From the sequence record MW822008.1: a stretch of DNA of 64,000 nt, one strand, 5' to 3'. Each line of letters starts with the position of its first letter. The stretch's first letter is position 1. Below, in pieces: positions 29,960-32,891 of this stretch. The notes under the pieces are model-generated. The model did not search any database and was not told the DNA's origin. It worked only from the letters and a program-made list of their open reading frames with translations. The position numbers and the translations under genes were made by a program. The DNA comes from Escherichia phage BF17.

Positions 29960-31075
29960 ATGAAAAAGTATTTGGTTGGCGGTTATACGAGAGATCGTTT
30001 AATGGGCATCCGTGCAAAAGACAAAGATTATGTCATTGTCGGTGCATCCGAATCTGATATTAAGTACTTGCAAAGTATTGGTTATAAGCAAGTAGGTAAG
30101 GATTTTCCTGTGTATCTCAGCCCAGAGGGTAATGAGCACGCATTGGCACGTACTGAACGTAAAACTGGTACTGGTTACGGTGGTTTCGAAGTGAATACTA
30201 AAGGCGTAACACTGGAACAAGATTTGTATCGCCGTGACCTTACAATTAATGCAATTGCGTATGATCCAGTACTCCAGATTCACATCGACCCTTATGGCGG
30301 GAAAGCTGATATCAAGAACAAAGTACTACGACATGTATCAGAACACTTTAAAGAAGATCCATTGCGTGTTCTACGTTTGGCCCGTTTCGCTACACGTTAC
30401 TCAGACTTTACAATCCATGATGATACTATGACAATGTGTAAAGATATGGTTAGTACTGGTGAACTAGACCATCTAGTCCCAGATCGTGTTTTTGTTGAAT
30501 TCGAAAAAGCACTTTCTGAAGAAAACCCTTCCAAGTTTATCAAAACTCTGGTACAATTTGGTTATTACGAAAAGGCATTTACTACAGTTCCAGTTACCAA
30601 GAAACGTCTGGAATTAATTGATGCTATCGCTGCAAATTGTACAGAAGAATATAAACCATATTTCTTATGGACAGTACTTCTTGAAAATGAAGAAGTAAAT
30701 AATGATTCAGTACTTAACGGTTCCATTAAGGTTCCAGTTAAGTACGTGAAGTTTAGTAATTACATCAAGCGTTTCCGTGAAGATATTAAAACCTTCCGTA
30801 AGAAGACCCCAGTTGAAATGGGACAAATCTTACTGGATATGAATATCAAAAACAATGGTGGTGAAGATTTCCTTTACAAAGTACTGGAAAACTTCATTTT
30901 GAACAAAGAAATTGATTCTGATCTTGAAGATTTGATTATTAAAGTTTATGATCGTTATACTGATGTTGAATTACCTGATATTCAGCAGTTAGTGAAAGAT
31001 GGTGAACTCCAAACATCGGAGATTCGTGATTTTGTTGCTGAATTGCGTATTGAAGCAATCAAGCAAATGTTCTAA
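29960..31075 (+). CDS. tRNA nucleotidyltransferase (CCA-adding enzyme) / poly(A) polymerase-family protein
   Basis: N-terminal GGYTRDRLMG...KDKDYVIVG head-domain motif (GGxVRD...DxD); RDLTINA motif. Confidence 0.75.
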   Translation: MKKYLVGGYTRDRLMGIRAKDKDYVIVGASESDIKYLQSIGYKQVGKDFPVYLSPEGNEHALARTERKTGTGYGGFEVNTKGVTLEQDLYRRDLTINAIAYDPVLQIHIDPYGGKADIKNKVLRHVSEHFKEDPLRVLRLARFATRYSDFTIHDDTMTMCKDMVSTGELDHLVPDRVFVEFEKALSEENPSKFIKTLVQFGYYEKAFTTVPVTKKRLELIDAIAANCTEEYKPYFLWTVLLENEEVNNDSVLNGSIKVPVKYVKFSNYIKRFREDIKTFRKKTPVEMGQILLDMNIKNNGGEDFLYKVLENFILNKEIDSDLEDLIIKVYDRYTDVELPDIQQLVKDGELQTSEIRDFVAELRIEAIKQMF

Positions 31076-31099
31076 AAGCTGGGACAAGTTAACATCTTC

Positions 31100-31108
31100 T
31101 GATATAAT
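31100..31108 (+). promoter_or_regulatory. extended -10 promoter element (TGATATAAT)
   Basis: TGaTATAAT about 40 nt upstream of the Nudix ATG. Confidence 0.4.
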
Positions 31109-31150
31109 TACTAGTATCTGAACATCACTTGATGATAAAGAGATAAGATT

Positions 31151-31595
31151 ATGCGTTATAGCTGTGGTATAATATTTTATCGTGATGGTCAGATACTTAT
31201 CGGGCATACAACACGGACAGAATCACTGGGACTTACCTAAAGGTAAAACTGAAGGTACAGAAACATTTAAAGAGGCTGCTGTACGTGAATGCTACGAAGA
31301 GACAGGATATGAAATCGATGAAGATGATCTTCTGTTTCTTGGTGATGTATCGTATAGAAAGGGGAAACGTTTAGTTTTATTTTTCTATACAGCCAAAGAT
31401 AAGCCTATACCAGAAGAGTTGGTGTGCAAAAGTACTTACACAAACAGATATGGTAGAAGTCACCCAGAATTGGATAAGTTCATGTACATTGATGTACTAG
31501 ATTGTCAAAAGTATTTGACTGAACGAATGTGTAACAGTATAATAAAGGCTGTTACGATGTTTCAACGAAATAAAGGGAAAAGAAATGAAAGTTAA
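31151..31595 (+). CDS. Nudix hydrolase, reading frame disrupted near 31219-31222 (pseudogene, +1 frameshift or sequencing indel)
   Basis: ATG 31151 encodes MRYSCGIIFYRDGQILIGHTTRTE then stops at 31238; Nudix box GKTEGTETFKEAAVRECYEETGY (G-x5-E-x7-REUxEExGU) and HWDLPKGK continue in the +1 frame (ORF track 31182-31595, GTG start). Confidence 0.65.
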
Positions 31596-31833
31596 AATTT
31601 ATGGTCGCACTACTGGTTGTAAATTCTGCGACACTGCTAAAGCAGTATGTGAAAATAACAAATTTGATATGGAGTTTATCGATATTGTTACCGCTGGTAT
31701 TGATGGTGCTAAACTATCTGAACTATGTGGTGAGCCAGTACGACAGGTTCCACAAATTTTCGTAAACGATGTTTACGTTCCAGGTGGCTGTACTGGTTTC
31801 GTTGAAGGTCTTAAAGAAGGTCGCTGGAATTAA
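31585..31833 (+). CDS. glutaredoxin/thioredoxin-like protein (T4 NrdC-like)
   Basis: KIYGRTTGCKFCDTAK CxxC active site near N-terminus and C-terminal VPQIFVNDVYVPGGCTGF resembling T4 NrdC. Confidence 0.6.
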   Translation: MKVKIYGRTTGCKFCDTAKAVCENNKFDMEFIDIVTAGIDGAKLSELCGEPVRQVPQIFVNDVYVPGGCTGFVEGLKEGRWN

Positions 31834-32075
31834 TGAATATTGATAAAGTATCATCTCGTGCAAAACATTTAGCTGACACATTGGGTGTTGAATTTAAAAT
31901 GCCTGATATGGAAGCTGTAAAAGTTAAAGCACAACGTAAAATTCACAAAATGAAAGAATACACTACTAAGAAAGAACAGTACGATAACGCGGTTGCTTAT
32001 ATTATTGAAGCTTTCAGTAAAGATGATATTTTGGCATTCATCGCTTCAGTAGAGGTTTCGAGCAACCCTAAATAA
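31833..32075 (+). CDS. hypothetical protein (80 aa)
   Basis: ORF track; ATGA overlap. Confidence 0.45.
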   Translation: MNIDKVSSRAKHLADTLGVEFKMPDMEAVKVKAQRKIHKMKEYTTKKEQYDNAVAYIIEAFSKDDILAFIASVEVSSNPK

Positions 32076-32120
32076 TAATGAAGAACACAAGTTCTTCGTA
32101 ACAATTTGGGAGATACTATT

Positions 32121-32363
32121 ATGCTCAGTTTTCGTGAACAATTAGCAAAAGGCCAATTCGCTGCTAAAGCTCAAACATCCATTCCTAAAAAGTCTGCTTT
32201 CTTAGGGACGATTACAGAAGATGGTTATTGTGATTATGATGCACCAGAAGATTCATGGTACATTACGAAAGACACAAAACGTGGTAATAGACTTCACAAA
32301 AGTACCATTGCTCGCAAACAACGAAAAGAATTGAAAAAAATTCGATTCGGTGAAGAAGAATAA
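32121..32363 (+). CDS. hypothetical basic protein
   Basis: ATG 32121 with GGGAGA RBS (ORF track TTG 32106). Confidence 0.45.
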   Translation: MLSFREQLAKGQFAAKAQTSIPKKSAFLGTITEDGYCDYDAPEDSWYITKDTKRGNRLHKSTIARKQRKELKKIRFGEEE

Positions 32364-32375
32364 AATATAAATTAA

Positions 32376-32404
32376 GGACTCTGATTACAGAGTCCTTTCT
32401 TTTC
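32376..32404 (+). terminator. intrinsic terminator
   Basis: Perfect hairpin GGACTCTG-atta-CAGAGTCC followed by TTTCTTTTC. Confidence 0.7.
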
Positions 32405-32414
32405 GGAGAATATA

Positions 32415-32891
32415 ATGATACATGAACACCTAGGTAATTTGTTTGAATTATTCAACACTGTTACTGATGATCAAACCGCGTTGCATATAATCGCTCATGG
32501 TTGTAATGCACAGGGTAAGATGGGTTCGGGTTTTGCAAAAGAACTAAGAAATCGTTATCCGATGGCATATGATGATTATAAAGCATATGAAAAGGAAATG
32601 GGATTTCTAAGAACAGGACAAATTTCATATTCTTCTATAAGTGATGATTTGCTTATCGCAAACTGCATTACCCAAAAGTACTATGGTAATGACGGTTCTA
32701 AGTATGTGAGTTATGATGCAATCGATGATGTTTTCAAACAACTCAATTACTTATGTAACGTTGAACGCACTGTTCATGTACACTTCCCGAAAATTGGAGC
32801 CGATTTAGGCGGTGGTAACTGGAACGTTATCAAAGAAATCATTGACCACAGACTGGTTAATGCAGAAAAACACTTATACATTCTAAAATAA
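32415..32891 (+). CDS. macro-domain protein (ADP-ribose binding/processing)
   Basis: HIIAHGCNAQGKMGSGFAKEL matches the macro-domain N-terminal glycine-rich signature. Confidence 0.6.
   Translation: MIHEHLGNLFELFNTVTDDQTALHIIAHGCNAQGKMGSGFAKELRNRYPMAYDDYKAYEKEMGFLRTGQISYSSISDDLLIANCITQKYYGNDGSKYVSYDAIDDVFKQLNYLCNVERTVHVHFPKIGADLGGGNWNVIKEIIDHRLVNAEKHLYILK

What the first reader, a model, noticed from the sequence alone, without database searches (positions are those of the whole stretch)
29960..32891. Accessory cluster: CCA-adding enzyme, Nudix hydrolase, glutaredoxin and macro-domain protein
Within 3 kb lie a tRNA nucleotidyltransferase-family protein (GGYTRDRLMG...DKDYVIVG), a Nudix hydrolase (complete Nudix box), a glutaredoxin-like protein and a macro-domain protein. 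No tRNA gene is in the window, so the CCA enzyme would act on host tRNAs (3'-end repair). Nudix plus macro points to ADP-ribose/NAD-derived nucleotide processing. Both activities are plausible counter-measures to tRNA-cleaving or NAD-depleting/ADP-ribosylating host defences, but which one is unknown.
Basis: partly seen in the sequence, partly recalled or inferred. Interest (0 to 1): 0.65.

Follow-up and report, generated by a model that had tools for sequence, protein, structure and literature searches.

The report
Jumbo-phage tRNA, Nudix, glutaredoxin, macro genes
This is a real run of four accessory genes in a 121Q-type jumbo coliphage, already annotated in public records and best read as separate helper functions, but the Nudix gene carries a conserved one-base frameshift that nobody seems to have noted.

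Summary
All four domain calls hold. The window is a 121Q/PBECO4-type jumbo coliphage, 99.4% identical to WPEC5.

- **29960-31075:** a complete class II CCA-adding enzyme without the HD phosphatase domain of E. coli Cca.
- **31151-31595:** a T4 NudE.1-type Nudix hydrolase.
- **31585-31833:** a Grx1-like glutaredoxin.
- **32415-32891:** a TARG1/DarG/SCO6735-class macro domain, homologous to T4 Tk.4 (AdfM). Knocking out tk.4 makes T4 sensitive to DarTG2.

- Close relatives carry 4-7 tRNA genes elsewhere in the genome. Several lack an encoded CCA, so the enzyme has phage substrates.
- The four genes are adjacent only in this phage lineage. In T5-like, T4-like, Vequintavirus, Schizotequatrovirus and XacN1 phages the same genes sit apart.
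- A conserved promoter-like site and a terminator-like hairpin divide the stretch.

So these are separate auxiliary functions, already annotated and already discussed in the literature.

One new point: the Nudix gene has a 1-nt insertion (C at 31214), shared by three diverged lineages. Selection is kept on both sides, each in its own frame, at ACA-CGG-A. CGG is the phage's rarest codon. This suggests a programmed +1 frameshift.

The parts
29960..31075 (+). HD-less class II tRNA nucleotidyltransferase (CCA-adding enzyme type), 371 aa
   Evidence: Pfam PF01743 4.7e-18 and PF12627 2.1e-9. NCBIfam E. coli multifunctional CCA protein 6.3e-83, but only residues 1-204 of 409 are covered. AlphaFold model pLDDT 93.2 aligns over its full length with T. 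maritima and B. stearothermophilus CCA enzymes (TMq 0.74 and 0.66). Bacterial homologs of ~413 aa carry HD PF01966; the phage forms do not.
31081..31108 (+). Promoter-like site (GGGACA-16-TATAAT with TG) between the CCA and Nudix genes
   Evidence: The core CTGATATAATTA...GTATCTGA is conserved in 121Q, L020 and L021 although the flanks have diverged.
31151..31213 (+). N-terminal 21 codons of the Nudix gene (MRYSCGIIFYRDGQILIGHTT), frame A, preceded by an AAGAG Shine-Dalgarno-like site
   Evidence: Matches the N-terminus of intact orthologs and of T4 NudE. There are 5 substitutions among 3 haplotypes: 4 synonymous and 1 Ile/Val in this frame.
31211..31217 (+). Frameshift site ACA-CGG-A; the inserted C is at 31214 and +1 reading gives GGA (Gly)
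   Evidence: 1-nt insertion relative to six intact orthologs. CGG is the rarest sense codon in the window, 2 of 18,499.
31215..31595 (+). Main part of the NudE.1-type Nudix hydrolase (Nudix box), frame B; the annotated ORF starts at 31182/31185
   Evidence: Pfam NUDIX 9.6e-12. PHROG 1185 5.7e-46. Restored protein against T4 NudE: 38% identity, E 4e-20. dN/dS 0.07 against 121Q.
31585..31833 (+). Grx1-like glutaredoxin, 82 aa, CKFC active site
   Evidence: Pfam 9.8e-9. NCBIfam GrxA 5.8e-18, below the equivalog cut-off. E. coli Grx1 1EGO 8.9e-10.
31833..32075 (+). Conserved 80-aa protein of unknown function
   Evidence: PHROG 34640 only. No Pfam or NCBIfam hit. dN/dS 0.2.
32106..32363 (+). Conserved ~80-aa basic protein of unknown function
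   Evidence: PHROG 15319 only. dN/dS 0.07.
32374..32397 (+). Terminator-like hairpin (10-bp stem) followed by a T-run, just upstream of the macro gene
   Evidence: The stem is identical in 121Q and the loop differs.
32415..32891 (+). Stand-alone macro domain, AdfM (T4 Tk.4) / SCO6735 / DarG class
   Evidence: PDB 2FG1 1e-15, 5E3B 3e-11, DarG 5M31 8e-4. NCBIfam DarG macro part 3.7e-8. T4 Tk.4 29% identity, E 5e-12. Invariant H28, N31 and Q87 in 119 homologs. Model and Foldseek results.
27987..28319 (+). Context: HPF/RaiA ribosome hibernation factor homolog
   Evidence: Pfam Ribosomal_S30AE 3.2e-10. Syntenic in all relatives.
33232..33609 (+). Context: divergent PTH2-like (peptidyl-tRNA hydrolase 2) protein, moderate confidence
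   Evidence: 5 of 6 orthologs hit PF01981, best 1.7e-7; the window copy itself does not hit it. Profile against PDB Pth2 2ZV3: 1.7e-3.

Best explanation
This stretch is part of a conserved early/middle block of a 121Q/Rak2-type jumbo myovirus. It holds several independently acting auxiliary genes, not one pathway.

1. **CCA enzyme.** It is a complete head-neck-body-tail class II enzyme derived from the gammaproteobacterial Cca, but without the HD phosphatase/phosphodiesterase domain. It adds or restores the 3' CCA on tRNAs that end in a 3'-OH. Its assured substrates are the phage's own tRNAs whose genes lack CCA. Repair of host tRNAs is an extra possibility. (Architecture shown; activity inferred.)
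2. **Nudix.** It is a T4 NudE.1-type pyrophosphatase (ADP-ribose, NAD, NAD-capped RNA, Ap3A and FAD in T4). Its gene is read from ATG 31151 and needs a +1 shift at ACA-CGG-A to make the full protein. (Homology and selection pattern shown; frameshifting inferred.)
3. **Glutaredoxin.** It is a Grx1-type disulfide reductant, probably for nucleotide metabolism. (Inferred.)
4. **Macro protein.** It is an AdfM-type ADP-ribosylglycohydrolase that strips DarT2-added ADP-ribose from thymidines in single-stranded phage DNA, so replication continues in DarTG2 hosts. (Family, fold and key residues shown; activity inferred from T4 Tk.4, PhiKZ AdfM and SCO6735.)
For: - **Identity of the phage:**
- **Domain and fold evidence:**
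- **No HD domain:**
- **Phage tRNAs.** fEgEco12 has Ser and Met with encoded CCA, and Asn plus two Thr(UGU) followed by 'CAAA'. WPEC5 has Ser and Met with CCA, and Asn and Thr without. All are confirmed by Rfam at 47-74 bits. T4 likewise has CCA-less Ser, Pro and Gln genes.
- **Macro.** T4 Tk.4 homology; tk.4/adfM knockout is sensitive to DarTG2; PhiKZ AdfM removes DarT2 marks. SCO6735 Gln85 is essential for thymidine-ADPr hydrolysis, and Q87 is invariant in 119 homologs. In a T5-like contig the homolog sits beside Gad2, HD_4 and cpYpsA.
- **Nudix.** T4 NudE homology; NudE.1 substrates.
- **Independence of the genes.** The block is conserved down to 42-45% macro identity within the lineage. 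Macro homologs in T5-like and T4-like contigs have no CCA or Nudix neighbour. CCA genes in A73, phi-Grn1 and XacN1 have no Nudix, Grx or macro neighbour. There is a conserved promoter-like site and a terminator-like hairpin.
- **Selection.** All genes are under purifying selection, dN/dS 0.05-0.22 at dS 0.56-0.92.
Against: - No activity was measured.
- The macro protein is only 29% identical to T4 Tk.4. It has Asp130 where the SCO6735 G128E mutation lowers activity, although Asp is the residue in 44 of 119 family members.
- The macro also resembles Poa1p, an Appr-1''-p phosphatase, so a soluble or RNA-linked substrate is not excluded.
- The window's own genome beyond 64 kb was not seen. The tRNA genes are inferred from relatives that are 98-99.4% identical across the 2.9 kb of the finding.
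- T4 matures its CCA-less tRNAs with host Cca (recalled knowledge), so a phage copy is not strictly needed. It could instead exist for repair under attack.
- Whether the phage has a ribonucleotide reductase for the glutaredoxin was not checked.
- Long-range conservation of the gene order is compatible with some functional coupling.
Confidence: 0.6

Rival explanations
1. One integrated counter-defence module. The macro domain releases ADP-ribose from modified targets. The Nudix destroys the released ADP-ribose or NAD-derived signals. The CCA enzyme repairs tRNA 3' ends cut or blocked by host effectors. The genes are kept together because they act in the same conflict.
For: The gene order CCA-Nudix-Grx-...-macro is kept across Escherichia, Klebsiella, Serratia/Erwinia, Xanthomonas and metagenomic relatives, down to 42-45% macro identity. 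ADP-ribose, the macro product, is a NudE.1 substrate. Defences that attack tRNA 3' tails exist: Cas12a3 and AbiE/MenT. The same idea is in PMC7824862.
Against: The synteny extends to lysozyme, HPF, neck, dNMP kinase and sheath, so it is whole-block vertical inheritance. Outside the lineage the genes are never adjacent. In T4, nudE and tk.4 are 6 kb apart. A promoter-like site and a conserved terminator-like hairpin split the run. A glutaredoxin and two unknown genes lie in between.
Confidence: 0.15
2. A translation and tRNA maintenance island. HPF, the CCA enzyme, YqeY (in relatives) and the PTH2-like protein keep ribosomes and tRNAs usable. The macro domain works on RNA-linked ADP-ribose or on ADP-ribose-1''-phosphate from tRNA repair, like Poa1p, rather than on DNA.
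For: HPF, CCA, YqeY in relatives and the PTH2-like protein all lie within about 6 kb. Poa1p hits: 2e-6 by sequence and TM 0.69-0.74 by fold. RNA ADP-ribosylation and its reversal are documented (paper titles).
Against: The closest characterised relatives of the macro protein act on thymidine-ADPr DNA (SCO6735) or protect against DarTG2 (T4 Tk.4). No Tpt1/KptA or RNA ligase gene was seen among the neighbours. The PTH2 call is weak for the window copy itself.
Confidence: 0.15
3. For the Nudix sub-feature: the 1-nt insertion is a plain fixed frameshift mutation. Only a truncated Nudix is made, starting at ATG 31185 and lacking the first beta-strand, or the gene is on its way to being lost. There is no programmed frameshifting.
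For: All public annotations call the short ORF. No stimulatory RNA structure lies downstream (z = -1.44). The ACA P-site codon offers no re-pairing in the +1 frame. The conserved upstream 63 nt also contains a TGGTATAAT that could serve as an internal promoter.
Against: The downstream part is under strong purifying selection (dN/dS 0.07 at dS 0.78), so the gene is not decaying. In the upstream 63 nt, 4 of 5 substitutions among three lineages are synonymous in frame A and the fifth is Ile/Val. The same changes give Ser-Gly, Ser-Asp and Leu-Val in the annotated frame; the chance of at least 4 of 5 being synonymous is about 0.008 given 21% synonymous sites. The Shine-Dalgarno-like site and promoter-like site precede ATG 31151, not ATG 31185. 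The segment aligns with the T4 NudE N-terminus.
Confidence: 0.4

Closest known systems
E. coli Cca (multifunctional CCA addition/repair protein, NCBIfam NF008137) and class II bacterial CCA-adding enzymes (PDB 3H38, 1MIV)
   Same: The N-terminal 204 residues are colinear with E. coli Cca (6.3e-83). Motifs GGxxRD...DxD, RRD and EDPLR are readable in the sequence. The predicted fold matches over the full length.
   Different: The C-terminal half has no HD domain, so it has no 2',3'-cyclic phosphodiesterase or phosphatase activity. It scores below every equivalog cut-off (278.8 against 451 bits).
T4 NudE.1 (gene e.1), a Nudix hydrolase active on ADP-ribose, Ap3A, FAD, NAD and NAD-capped RNA
   Same: 38% identity, E 4e-20 over 124 residues, including the N-terminal strand. 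Complete Nudix box. Lies near the phage lysozyme gene in both phages.
   Different: The gene is interrupted by a 1-nt insertion in the E. coli/Salmonella jumbo-phage clade. Substrates are untested.
AdfM: T4 Tk.4 (bioRxiv 10.1101/2025.11.20.689424) and PhiKZ gp104 (PMC13309987), phage macro domains that counter DarTG2
   Same: Stand-alone macro protein of about 155 aa. Homologous to T4 Tk.4 (E 5e-12), sharing HGCN, TQ and P[KR]IGA motifs. Same fold class as DarG.
   Different: Only 29% identical to Tk.4. Relation to PhiKZ gp104 was not tested. No phenotype data exist for this phage group.
SCO6735 (PDB 5E3B) and BT1257 (2FG1), Gln-type members of the ALC1-like/TARG1/DarG macro class
   Same: Best solved-structure matches. 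Gln87 aligns with the catalytic Gln85 of SCO6735 and Lys84 of TARG1; His28 and Asn31 are conserved.
   Different: Asp130 at the position of SCO6735 Gly128. Encoded by a phage, with no DarT partner.
DarG antitoxin (NCBIfam NF048014)
   Same: The macro part matches (3.7e-8, profile positions 20-139).
   Different: Lacks the C-terminal DarT-binding domain (158 against 338 positions). Has Gln instead of the catalytic Lys. Scores 33 bits against a 250-bit cut-off.
Known +1 programmed frameshifts (E. coli prfB; yeast Ty3 type with a slow A-site codon) - comparison from recalled knowledge
   Same: A very rare codon (CGG) in the A-site at the shift point, and an in-frame product restored by reading the +1 codon.
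   Different: No upstream Shine-Dalgarno-like stimulator and no slippery P-site codon. Not demonstrated experimentally.

Membership tests
Class II tRNA nucleotidyltransferase (CCA-adding enzyme) | Pol-beta-type head domain with motif A (GGxxRD...DxD) | tested here: met
   GGYTRD...DKD in the translation. PF01743 4.7e-18.
Class II tRNA nucleotidyltransferase (CCA-adding enzyme) | Neck motifs B (RRD) and D (EDxxR) that template CTP/ATP selection | tested here: met
   YRRDLTINA and KEDPLRVLR read in the sequence. R91, R92, D93, E132, D133 and R136 are invariant in 30 homologs.
Class II tRNA nucleotidyltransferase (CCA-adding enzyme) | Helical body and tail domains that hold the tRNA | tested here: met
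   AlphaFold pLDDT 93.2. Foldseek aligns about 388 columns with 3H38, 5HC9 (tRNA complex) and 1MIV, TMq 0.66-0.74.
Class II tRNA nucleotidyltransferase (CCA-adding enzyme) | Adds C-C-A, rather than only A, only CC, or poly(A) | not testable with these tools
   A-adding and poly(A) enzymes also appear among the fold and sequence hits. Colinearity with E. coli Cca over residues 1-204 favours full CCA addition.
E. coli-type multifunctional CCA addition/repair protein | C-terminal HD domain (phosphatase, 2',3'-cyclic phosphodiesterase) | tested here: not met
   The NF008137 match stops at position 204 of 409 and scores 278.8 against a 451-bit cut-off. No PF01966, unlike the 413-aa bacterial homologs.
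Nudix hydrolase, T4 NudE.1 family | Nudix box GX5EX7REUXEEXGU | tested here: met
   G21...Y43 of the annotated ORF. PF00293 9.6e-12.
Nudix hydrolase, T4 NudE.1 family | Sequence homology to T4 NudE over the whole fold | tested here: met
   38% identity, E 4e-20 for the frame-restored protein. tblastn hits nudE genes of T-even-type phages such as T2.
Nudix hydrolase, T4 NudE.1 family | Whole fold encoded in one uninterrupted reading frame | tested here: not met
   A 1-nt insertion at 31214 separates the first 21 codons from the rest.
Nudix hydrolase, T4 NudE.1 family | Hydrolysis of ADP-ribose, NAD or NAD-RNA | not testable with these tools
   Known for T4 NudE.1 only.
GrxA-type glutaredoxin | Thioredoxin fold with a CxxC active site | tested here: met
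   CKFC motif. PF00462 9.8e-9. 1EGO 8.9e-10.
GrxA-type glutaredoxin | Equivalog-level score to GrxA | tested here: not met
   64.8 bits against an 84-bit cut-off.
Macro domain, ALC1-like (TARG1/DarG/SCO6735) class; AdfM | Macro fold | tested here: met
   2FG1 1e-15. Model pLDDT 93.7, TM 0.72-0.82 to 2FG1, 5E3B, 5M3E and 4J5S. Pfam alone is below its cut-off.
Macro domain, ALC1-like (TARG1/DarG/SCO6735) class; AdfM | Catalytic residue at the TARG1 Lys84 / DarG Lys80 / SCO6735 Gln85 position | tested here: met
The same TQ motif is present in T4 Tk.4.
Macro domain, ALC1-like (TARG1/DarG/SCO6735) class; AdfM | Homology to an experimentally validated AdfM | tested here: met
   T4 Tk.4: 29% identity, E 5e-12. 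Phenotype reported.
Macro domain, ALC1-like (TARG1/DarG/SCO6735) class; AdfM | Protects the phage from DarTG2 and removes thymidine-linked ADP-ribose | not testable with these tools
   Inferred from T4 Tk.4, PhiKZ AdfM and SCO6735.
DarG antitoxin | Macro domain fused to a DarT-binding C-terminal domain | tested here: not met
   The 158-aa protein matches only profile positions 20-139 of 338, at 33 against 250 bits.
PTH2 peptidyl-tRNA hydrolase (neighbour at 33232-33609) | Match to PF01981 or to solved Pth2 structures | tested here: inconclusive
   5 of 6 orthologs hit PF01981 (best 1.7e-7), but not the window copy. Profile against 2ZV3: 1.7e-3.

The most novel reading that the evidence does not exclude
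The nudE.1-type Nudix gene of the E. coli/Salmonella 121Q-like jumbo phages is expressed through a conserved programmed +1 ribosomal frameshift at ACA-CGG-A (31211-31217). The slow decoding of CGG, the phage's rarest codon, lets the ribosome read GGA and join the 21-residue N-terminal strand to the Nudix domain. The amount of active Nudix would then depend on the state of the host's translation apparatus, for example the availability of tRNA-Arg(CCG).
Probability: 0.45. Interest if true: 0.6.

Novelty: new member of a known kind. Interest (0 to 1): 0.4.

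Why it matters
As reported, the cluster adds little. The four genes are already named in RefSeq for phage 121Q, and their possible counter-defence roles are in the literature.

Three points have practical value.

- **A sharper macro prediction.** The macro protein can now be given a specific, testable role: an AdfM-type anti-DarTG2 enzyme of the Gln-type SCO6735 branch. This would extend a counter-defence discovered in 2025-2026 to a large group of therapeutic-candidate jumbo coliphages. 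About 2,000 phage records carry homologs.
- **A simpler reason for the CCA enzyme.** The phage's own tRNA genes partly lack CCA. That explains why phages with tRNA genes might carry CCA enzymes without invoking repair of host tRNA.
- **A candidate +1 frameshift.** The conserved frameshift in the Nudix gene is mis-annotated in every record examined. If programmed, it would be one of very few +1 frameshifts known in phages.

Tried and rejected
- **WPEC5 1-50 kb for tRNAs:** none found. The tRNA cluster was then located through the fEgEco12 paper and by synteny in WPEC5.
- **HD domain in the CCA enzyme:** absent. The 'phosphatase' and 'multifunctional' labels in some records are over-annotation.
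- **ICP1 AdfB as a possible macro homolog:** the paper describes an antitoxin mimic that acts by binding DarT, and I took no macro-domain link from the passages shown, so it was not used.
- **More haplotypes of the frameshift:** pattern scans of IMG/VR and of the metagenome collection returned only copies of 121Q. Three haplotypes is all the accessible data offer.
- **RNA structure downstream of the shift site:** not better than shuffles (z = -1.44).
- **Phage tRNA-Thr(UGU) as a four-base decoder of ACAC:** the anticodon loops read are ordinary 7-nt loops, so the idea was dropped.
- **Pseudogene reading of the Nudix:** rejected for the domain part by dN/dS 0.07.
- **The two small ORFs between the glutaredoxin and macro genes:** no Pfam or NCBIfam hit, only PHROGs of unknown function.
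- **Nudix, Grx or macro next to CCA genes in other lineages:** none by annotation or by Pfam on the unnamed neighbours.
- **A ribonucleotide reductase partner for the glutaredoxin:** not checked, because the rest of the genome was not fetched.

Full report
**What the window is.** The 2.9 kb of the finding is 99.4% identical to Escherichia phage WPEC5 (381 kb). It is 98% identical to fEgEco12, WPEC3 and EC.P1, and 85% identical to 121Q and PBECO4, genus Asteriusvirus. These are jumbo myoviruses of 320-386 kb, so the 64 kb window is about one sixth of the genome. In RefSeq 121Q the four genes are already named tRNA nucleotidyltransferase, nudix hydrolase, glutaredoxin and macro domain-containing protein.

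**Check of the observation.** The ORFs are at the stated coordinates, all on the + strand.
- CCA enzyme: Pfam PolyA_pol 4.7e-18 plus PolyA_pol_RNAbd 2.1e-9.
- Nudix: Pfam NUDIX 9.6e-12.
- Glutaredoxin: Pfam 9.8e-9.
- Macro: Pfam only 5.7e-4, below the curated cut-off. Solved macro structures remove the doubt: BT1257 2FG1 1e-15, SCO6735 5E3B 3e-11, Poa1p 2e-6, DarG 8e-4. So does an AlphaFold model (pLDDT 93.7) that matches 2FG1, 5E3B, DarG and TARG1 with TM 0.72-0.82.
- ARAGORN finds no tRNA gene in the window.

**The CCA enzyme (29960-31075).**
- Residues 1-204 are colinear with positions 1-204 of the E. coli multifunctional CCA protein profile (6.3e-83), but the match stops there and stays below the equivalog cut-off.
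- Bacterial homologs of about 413 aa carry the HD domain PF01966. The roughly 370-aa phage forms do not.
- Motifs A (GGYTRD...DKD), B (RRD) and D (EDPLR) are present and invariant among 30 homologs.
- An AlphaFold model (pLDDT 93.2, pTM 0.85) aligns over its whole length with class II CCA-adding enzymes. These include the T. maritima enzyme bound to tRNA (TMq 0.70-0.74) and 1MIV (0.66).

It is therefore a complete head-neck-body-tail enzyme that has lost the phosphatase/phosphodiesterase module. It can extend only 3'-OH ends. Homologs occur in 504 phage records, spread over many genera.

**Does it have to act on host tRNAs?** No.
- fEgEco12 has a tRNA cluster. Reading the 3' flanks shows that Ser(GCU) and Met encode CCA, while Asn(GUU) and both Thr(UGU) genes are followed by CAAA after the discriminator base.
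- WPEC5 shows the same split: Ser and Met with CCA, Asn and Thr without.
- Rfam confirms all of them as tRNAs at 47-74 bits, with the CCA-less fEgEco12 genes scoring highest.
- T4 also has CCA-less Ser, Pro and Gln genes.
- From established knowledge, E. coli tRNA genes all encode CCA and host Cca is a repair enzyme.

The phage enzyme therefore has built-in substrates. Repair of host tRNAs attacked at the 3' tail remains possible but is not required. Defences that attack the 3' tail are documented: Cas12a3 and AbiE/MenT.

**The Nudix gene (31151-31595).** The protein belongs to the T4 NudE.1 (e.1) family. tblastn finds it in 1,275 phage records, including the nudE genes of T-even-type phages such as T2. 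T4 NudE.1 hydrolyses ADP-ribose, Ap3A, FAD, NAD and NAD-capped RNA in vitro, and a catalytic mutant only delays lysis by about 15 minutes.

The annotated ORF (31182/31185-31595) is short at the N-terminus.
- Orthologs from Klebsiella, Serratia, Erwinia and Xanthomonas phages and from metagenomes begin MRYSCGIIFY[KR]xGQIL[VI]GH[AT]TGQxHWDLPKGK.
- In the window the same 21 residues are encoded from ATG 31151 in another frame. They are preceded by an AAGAG Shine-Dalgarno-like site and a conserved TG-TATAAT promoter-like site.
- A single inserted C (31214; ACA ACA C GGA CAG) moves the rest of the gene into the +1 frame.
- The insertion is shared by the window, fEgEco12, Turkey3, 121Q, Salmonella phage SD-6 and a more distant metagenomic contig, L020. 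It is absent from the next lineage out, L021. It is therefore old and not a sequencing error.

Selection evidence:
- Between the window and 121Q, synonymous divergence is 0.56-0.92 in all genes of the region, yet the Nudix domain has dN/dS 0.07.
- In the 63 nt upstream of the insertion, the three haplotypes differ by five substitutions. In the upstream frame four are synonymous and one is Ile/Val.
- The same changes give Ser-Gly, Ser-Asp and Leu-Val in the annotated frame.
- With 21% synonymous sites, four or more of five synonymous changes has a chance of about 0.008 (my calculation).
- The frame-restored protein aligns with T4 NudE from residue 4 (38% identity, E 4e-20).
- The codon at the shift point, CGG, is the rarest sense codon in the window: 2 of 18,499 codons.
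- There is no significant RNA structure downstream.

My reading is a programmed +1 frameshift (probability about 0.45), against expression of a truncated protein (about 0.4). Either way the public annotations are incomplete.

**The glutaredoxin (31585-31833).** It has a CKFC active site. Its best matches are the GrxA family (5.8e-18, below the equivalog cut-off) and E. coli Grx1 (8.9e-10). I did not establish its partner.

**The macro protein (32415-32891).**
- It belongs to the ALC1-like class, with TARG1, DarG, SCO6735, BT1257 and Poa1p.
- In an alignment of 119 homologs, H28, G29, N31, G39, N83, T86, Q87, P125 and G128 are invariant or nearly so. Q87 sits at the position of TARG1 Lys84.
- SCO6735 has Gln85 there. 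Q85A abolishes its hydrolysis of thymidine-linked ADP-ribose on DNA, and SCO6735 rescues cells from DarT.
- T4 Tk.4 is a homolog (29% identity, E 5e-12) with the same HGCN, TQ and PRIGAG motifs.
- A 2025 preprint shows that tk.4 is the single T4 gene needed on DarTG2 hosts and names it adfM.
- A 2026 paper shows that PhiKZ gp104, also named AdfM, removes DarT2 marks from DNA.
- Homologs are present in 1,977 phage records.
- In a T5-like contig the homolog lies beside Gad2, an HD_4 hydrolase and cpYpsA, which looks like an anti-defence neighbourhood.

The most likely function is therefore removal of DarT2-added ADP-ribose from phage DNA. Two caveats apply. Identity to Tk.4 is low. Asp130 occupies the position where G128E weakens SCO6735, although Asp is found in 44 of 119 family members.

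**Is it a functional cluster?** The order is lysozyme, HPF, (small ORFs), CCA, Nudix, Grx, (YqeY in some relatives), small ORFs, macro, PTH2-like, gp13 neck, dNMP kinase, sheath. It is kept in Klebsiella, Serratia/Erwinia, Xanthomonas and metagenomic relatives, down to 42-45% macro identity. That is conservation of a whole genome block that includes structural genes.

Outside the lineage the genes are apart.
- Macro homologs in T5-like and T4-like contigs have no CCA or Nudix neighbour.
- CCA genes in a Vequintavirus, a Schizotequatrovirus and XacN1 have no Nudix, Grx or macro neighbour.
- In T4, nudE and tk.4 lie 6 kb apart in the tk-e-tRNA region.
- Within the window, a promoter-like site follows the CCA gene, and a hairpin plus T-run, whose stem is identical in 121Q, precedes the macro gene.

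I conclude that these are separate auxiliary functions inherited together. The neighbourhood does have a translation flavour: HPF (Pfam 3.2e-10), the CCA enzyme, YqeY in relatives, and a divergent PTH2-like protein.

**Novelty.** The gene content and the general counter-defence reading are already public. The assignment of the macro protein to AdfM is a new member of a recently defined kind. The conserved frameshift in the Nudix gene is, as far as I could find, unreported, and it is the only surprising element.

Noticed in passing
window 31151-31217: The Nudix gene is split by a 1-nt insertion (C at 31214), shared by the window, fEgEco12, Turkey3, 121Q, SD-6 and metagenomic contig L020. Both parts stay under purifying selection in their own frames, and the shift codon CGG is the rarest codon in the window. 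All public annotations call only the downstream ORF.
   Followed up: yes
window 33232-33609: This 125-aa protein is annotated 'aminoacyl-tRNA hydrolase' in fEgEco12. Its orthologs hit Pfam PTH2 (best 1.7e-7), and a profile hits archaeal Pth2 2ZV3 at 1.7e-3, but the window copy alone does not reach significance.
   Followed up: partly
window 27987-28319: An HPF/RaiA-type ribosome hibernation factor homolog (Pfam S30AE 3.2e-10) lies two kb upstream of the CCA gene and is syntenic in all relatives. Together with the CCA enzyme, the PTH2-like protein and YqeY in relatives, it gives the block a translation theme.
   Followed up: partly
L007 3689-4120, L008 3675-4109, L013 3681-4115, L014 from 1043: Xanthomonas, Serratia and metagenomic relatives carry a YqeY/GatB-like gene directly after the glutaredoxin. 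It is missing in the window, where the 80-aa ORF 31833-32075 occupies that place.
   Followed up: no
window 32374-32397: A 10-bp hairpin followed by a T-run lies between the 85-aa ORF and the macro gene. Its stem is identical in 121Q and its loop differs, so it is a likely terminator or processing site.
   Followed up: partly
window 31081-31120: A conserved intergenic motif, CTGATATAATTAnTnGTATCTGA (extended -10 type), lies upstream of the Nudix gene in the window, 121Q, L020 and L021, with a variant in Serratia BF. It is possibly a phage promoter class.
   Followed up: no
window 28374-28790, 29002-29415, 29402-29824: Three neighbouring ORFs of about 138 aa have similar C-terminal halves (for example ...FIDDTFGFDFDLYNSIMNVYHIYERNL against ...FIDDTFSIDYPSFQCILAIHKKYYDRL). 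They look like tandem paralogs of unknown function with no Pfam hit.
   Followed up: no
L009 2462-6500 (T5-like metagenomic contig): A macro homolog sits among dCMP deaminase, cpYpsA, an HD_4 (RelA/SpoT-type) hydrolase and Gad2, resembling an anti-defence gene island.
   Followed up: no
L005 9131-9215 and 6787-6859 (WPEC5): The WPEC5 Asn(GUU) gene is 85 nt, longer than the 73-nt Asn gene of fEgEco12, and its Thr(UGU) gene differs in sequence from the fEgEco12 Thr genes. Both lack an encoded CCA, and neither is annotated in the record.
   Followed up: partly
L003 26672-44893 (WPEC5, outside the window): An array of about 15 tandem paralogs annotated as RCC1/ATS1-like 'chromosome condensation regulator' proteins of about 370-390 aa each. 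Upstream is a run of about 20 very small genes of about 60 aa.
   Followed up: no
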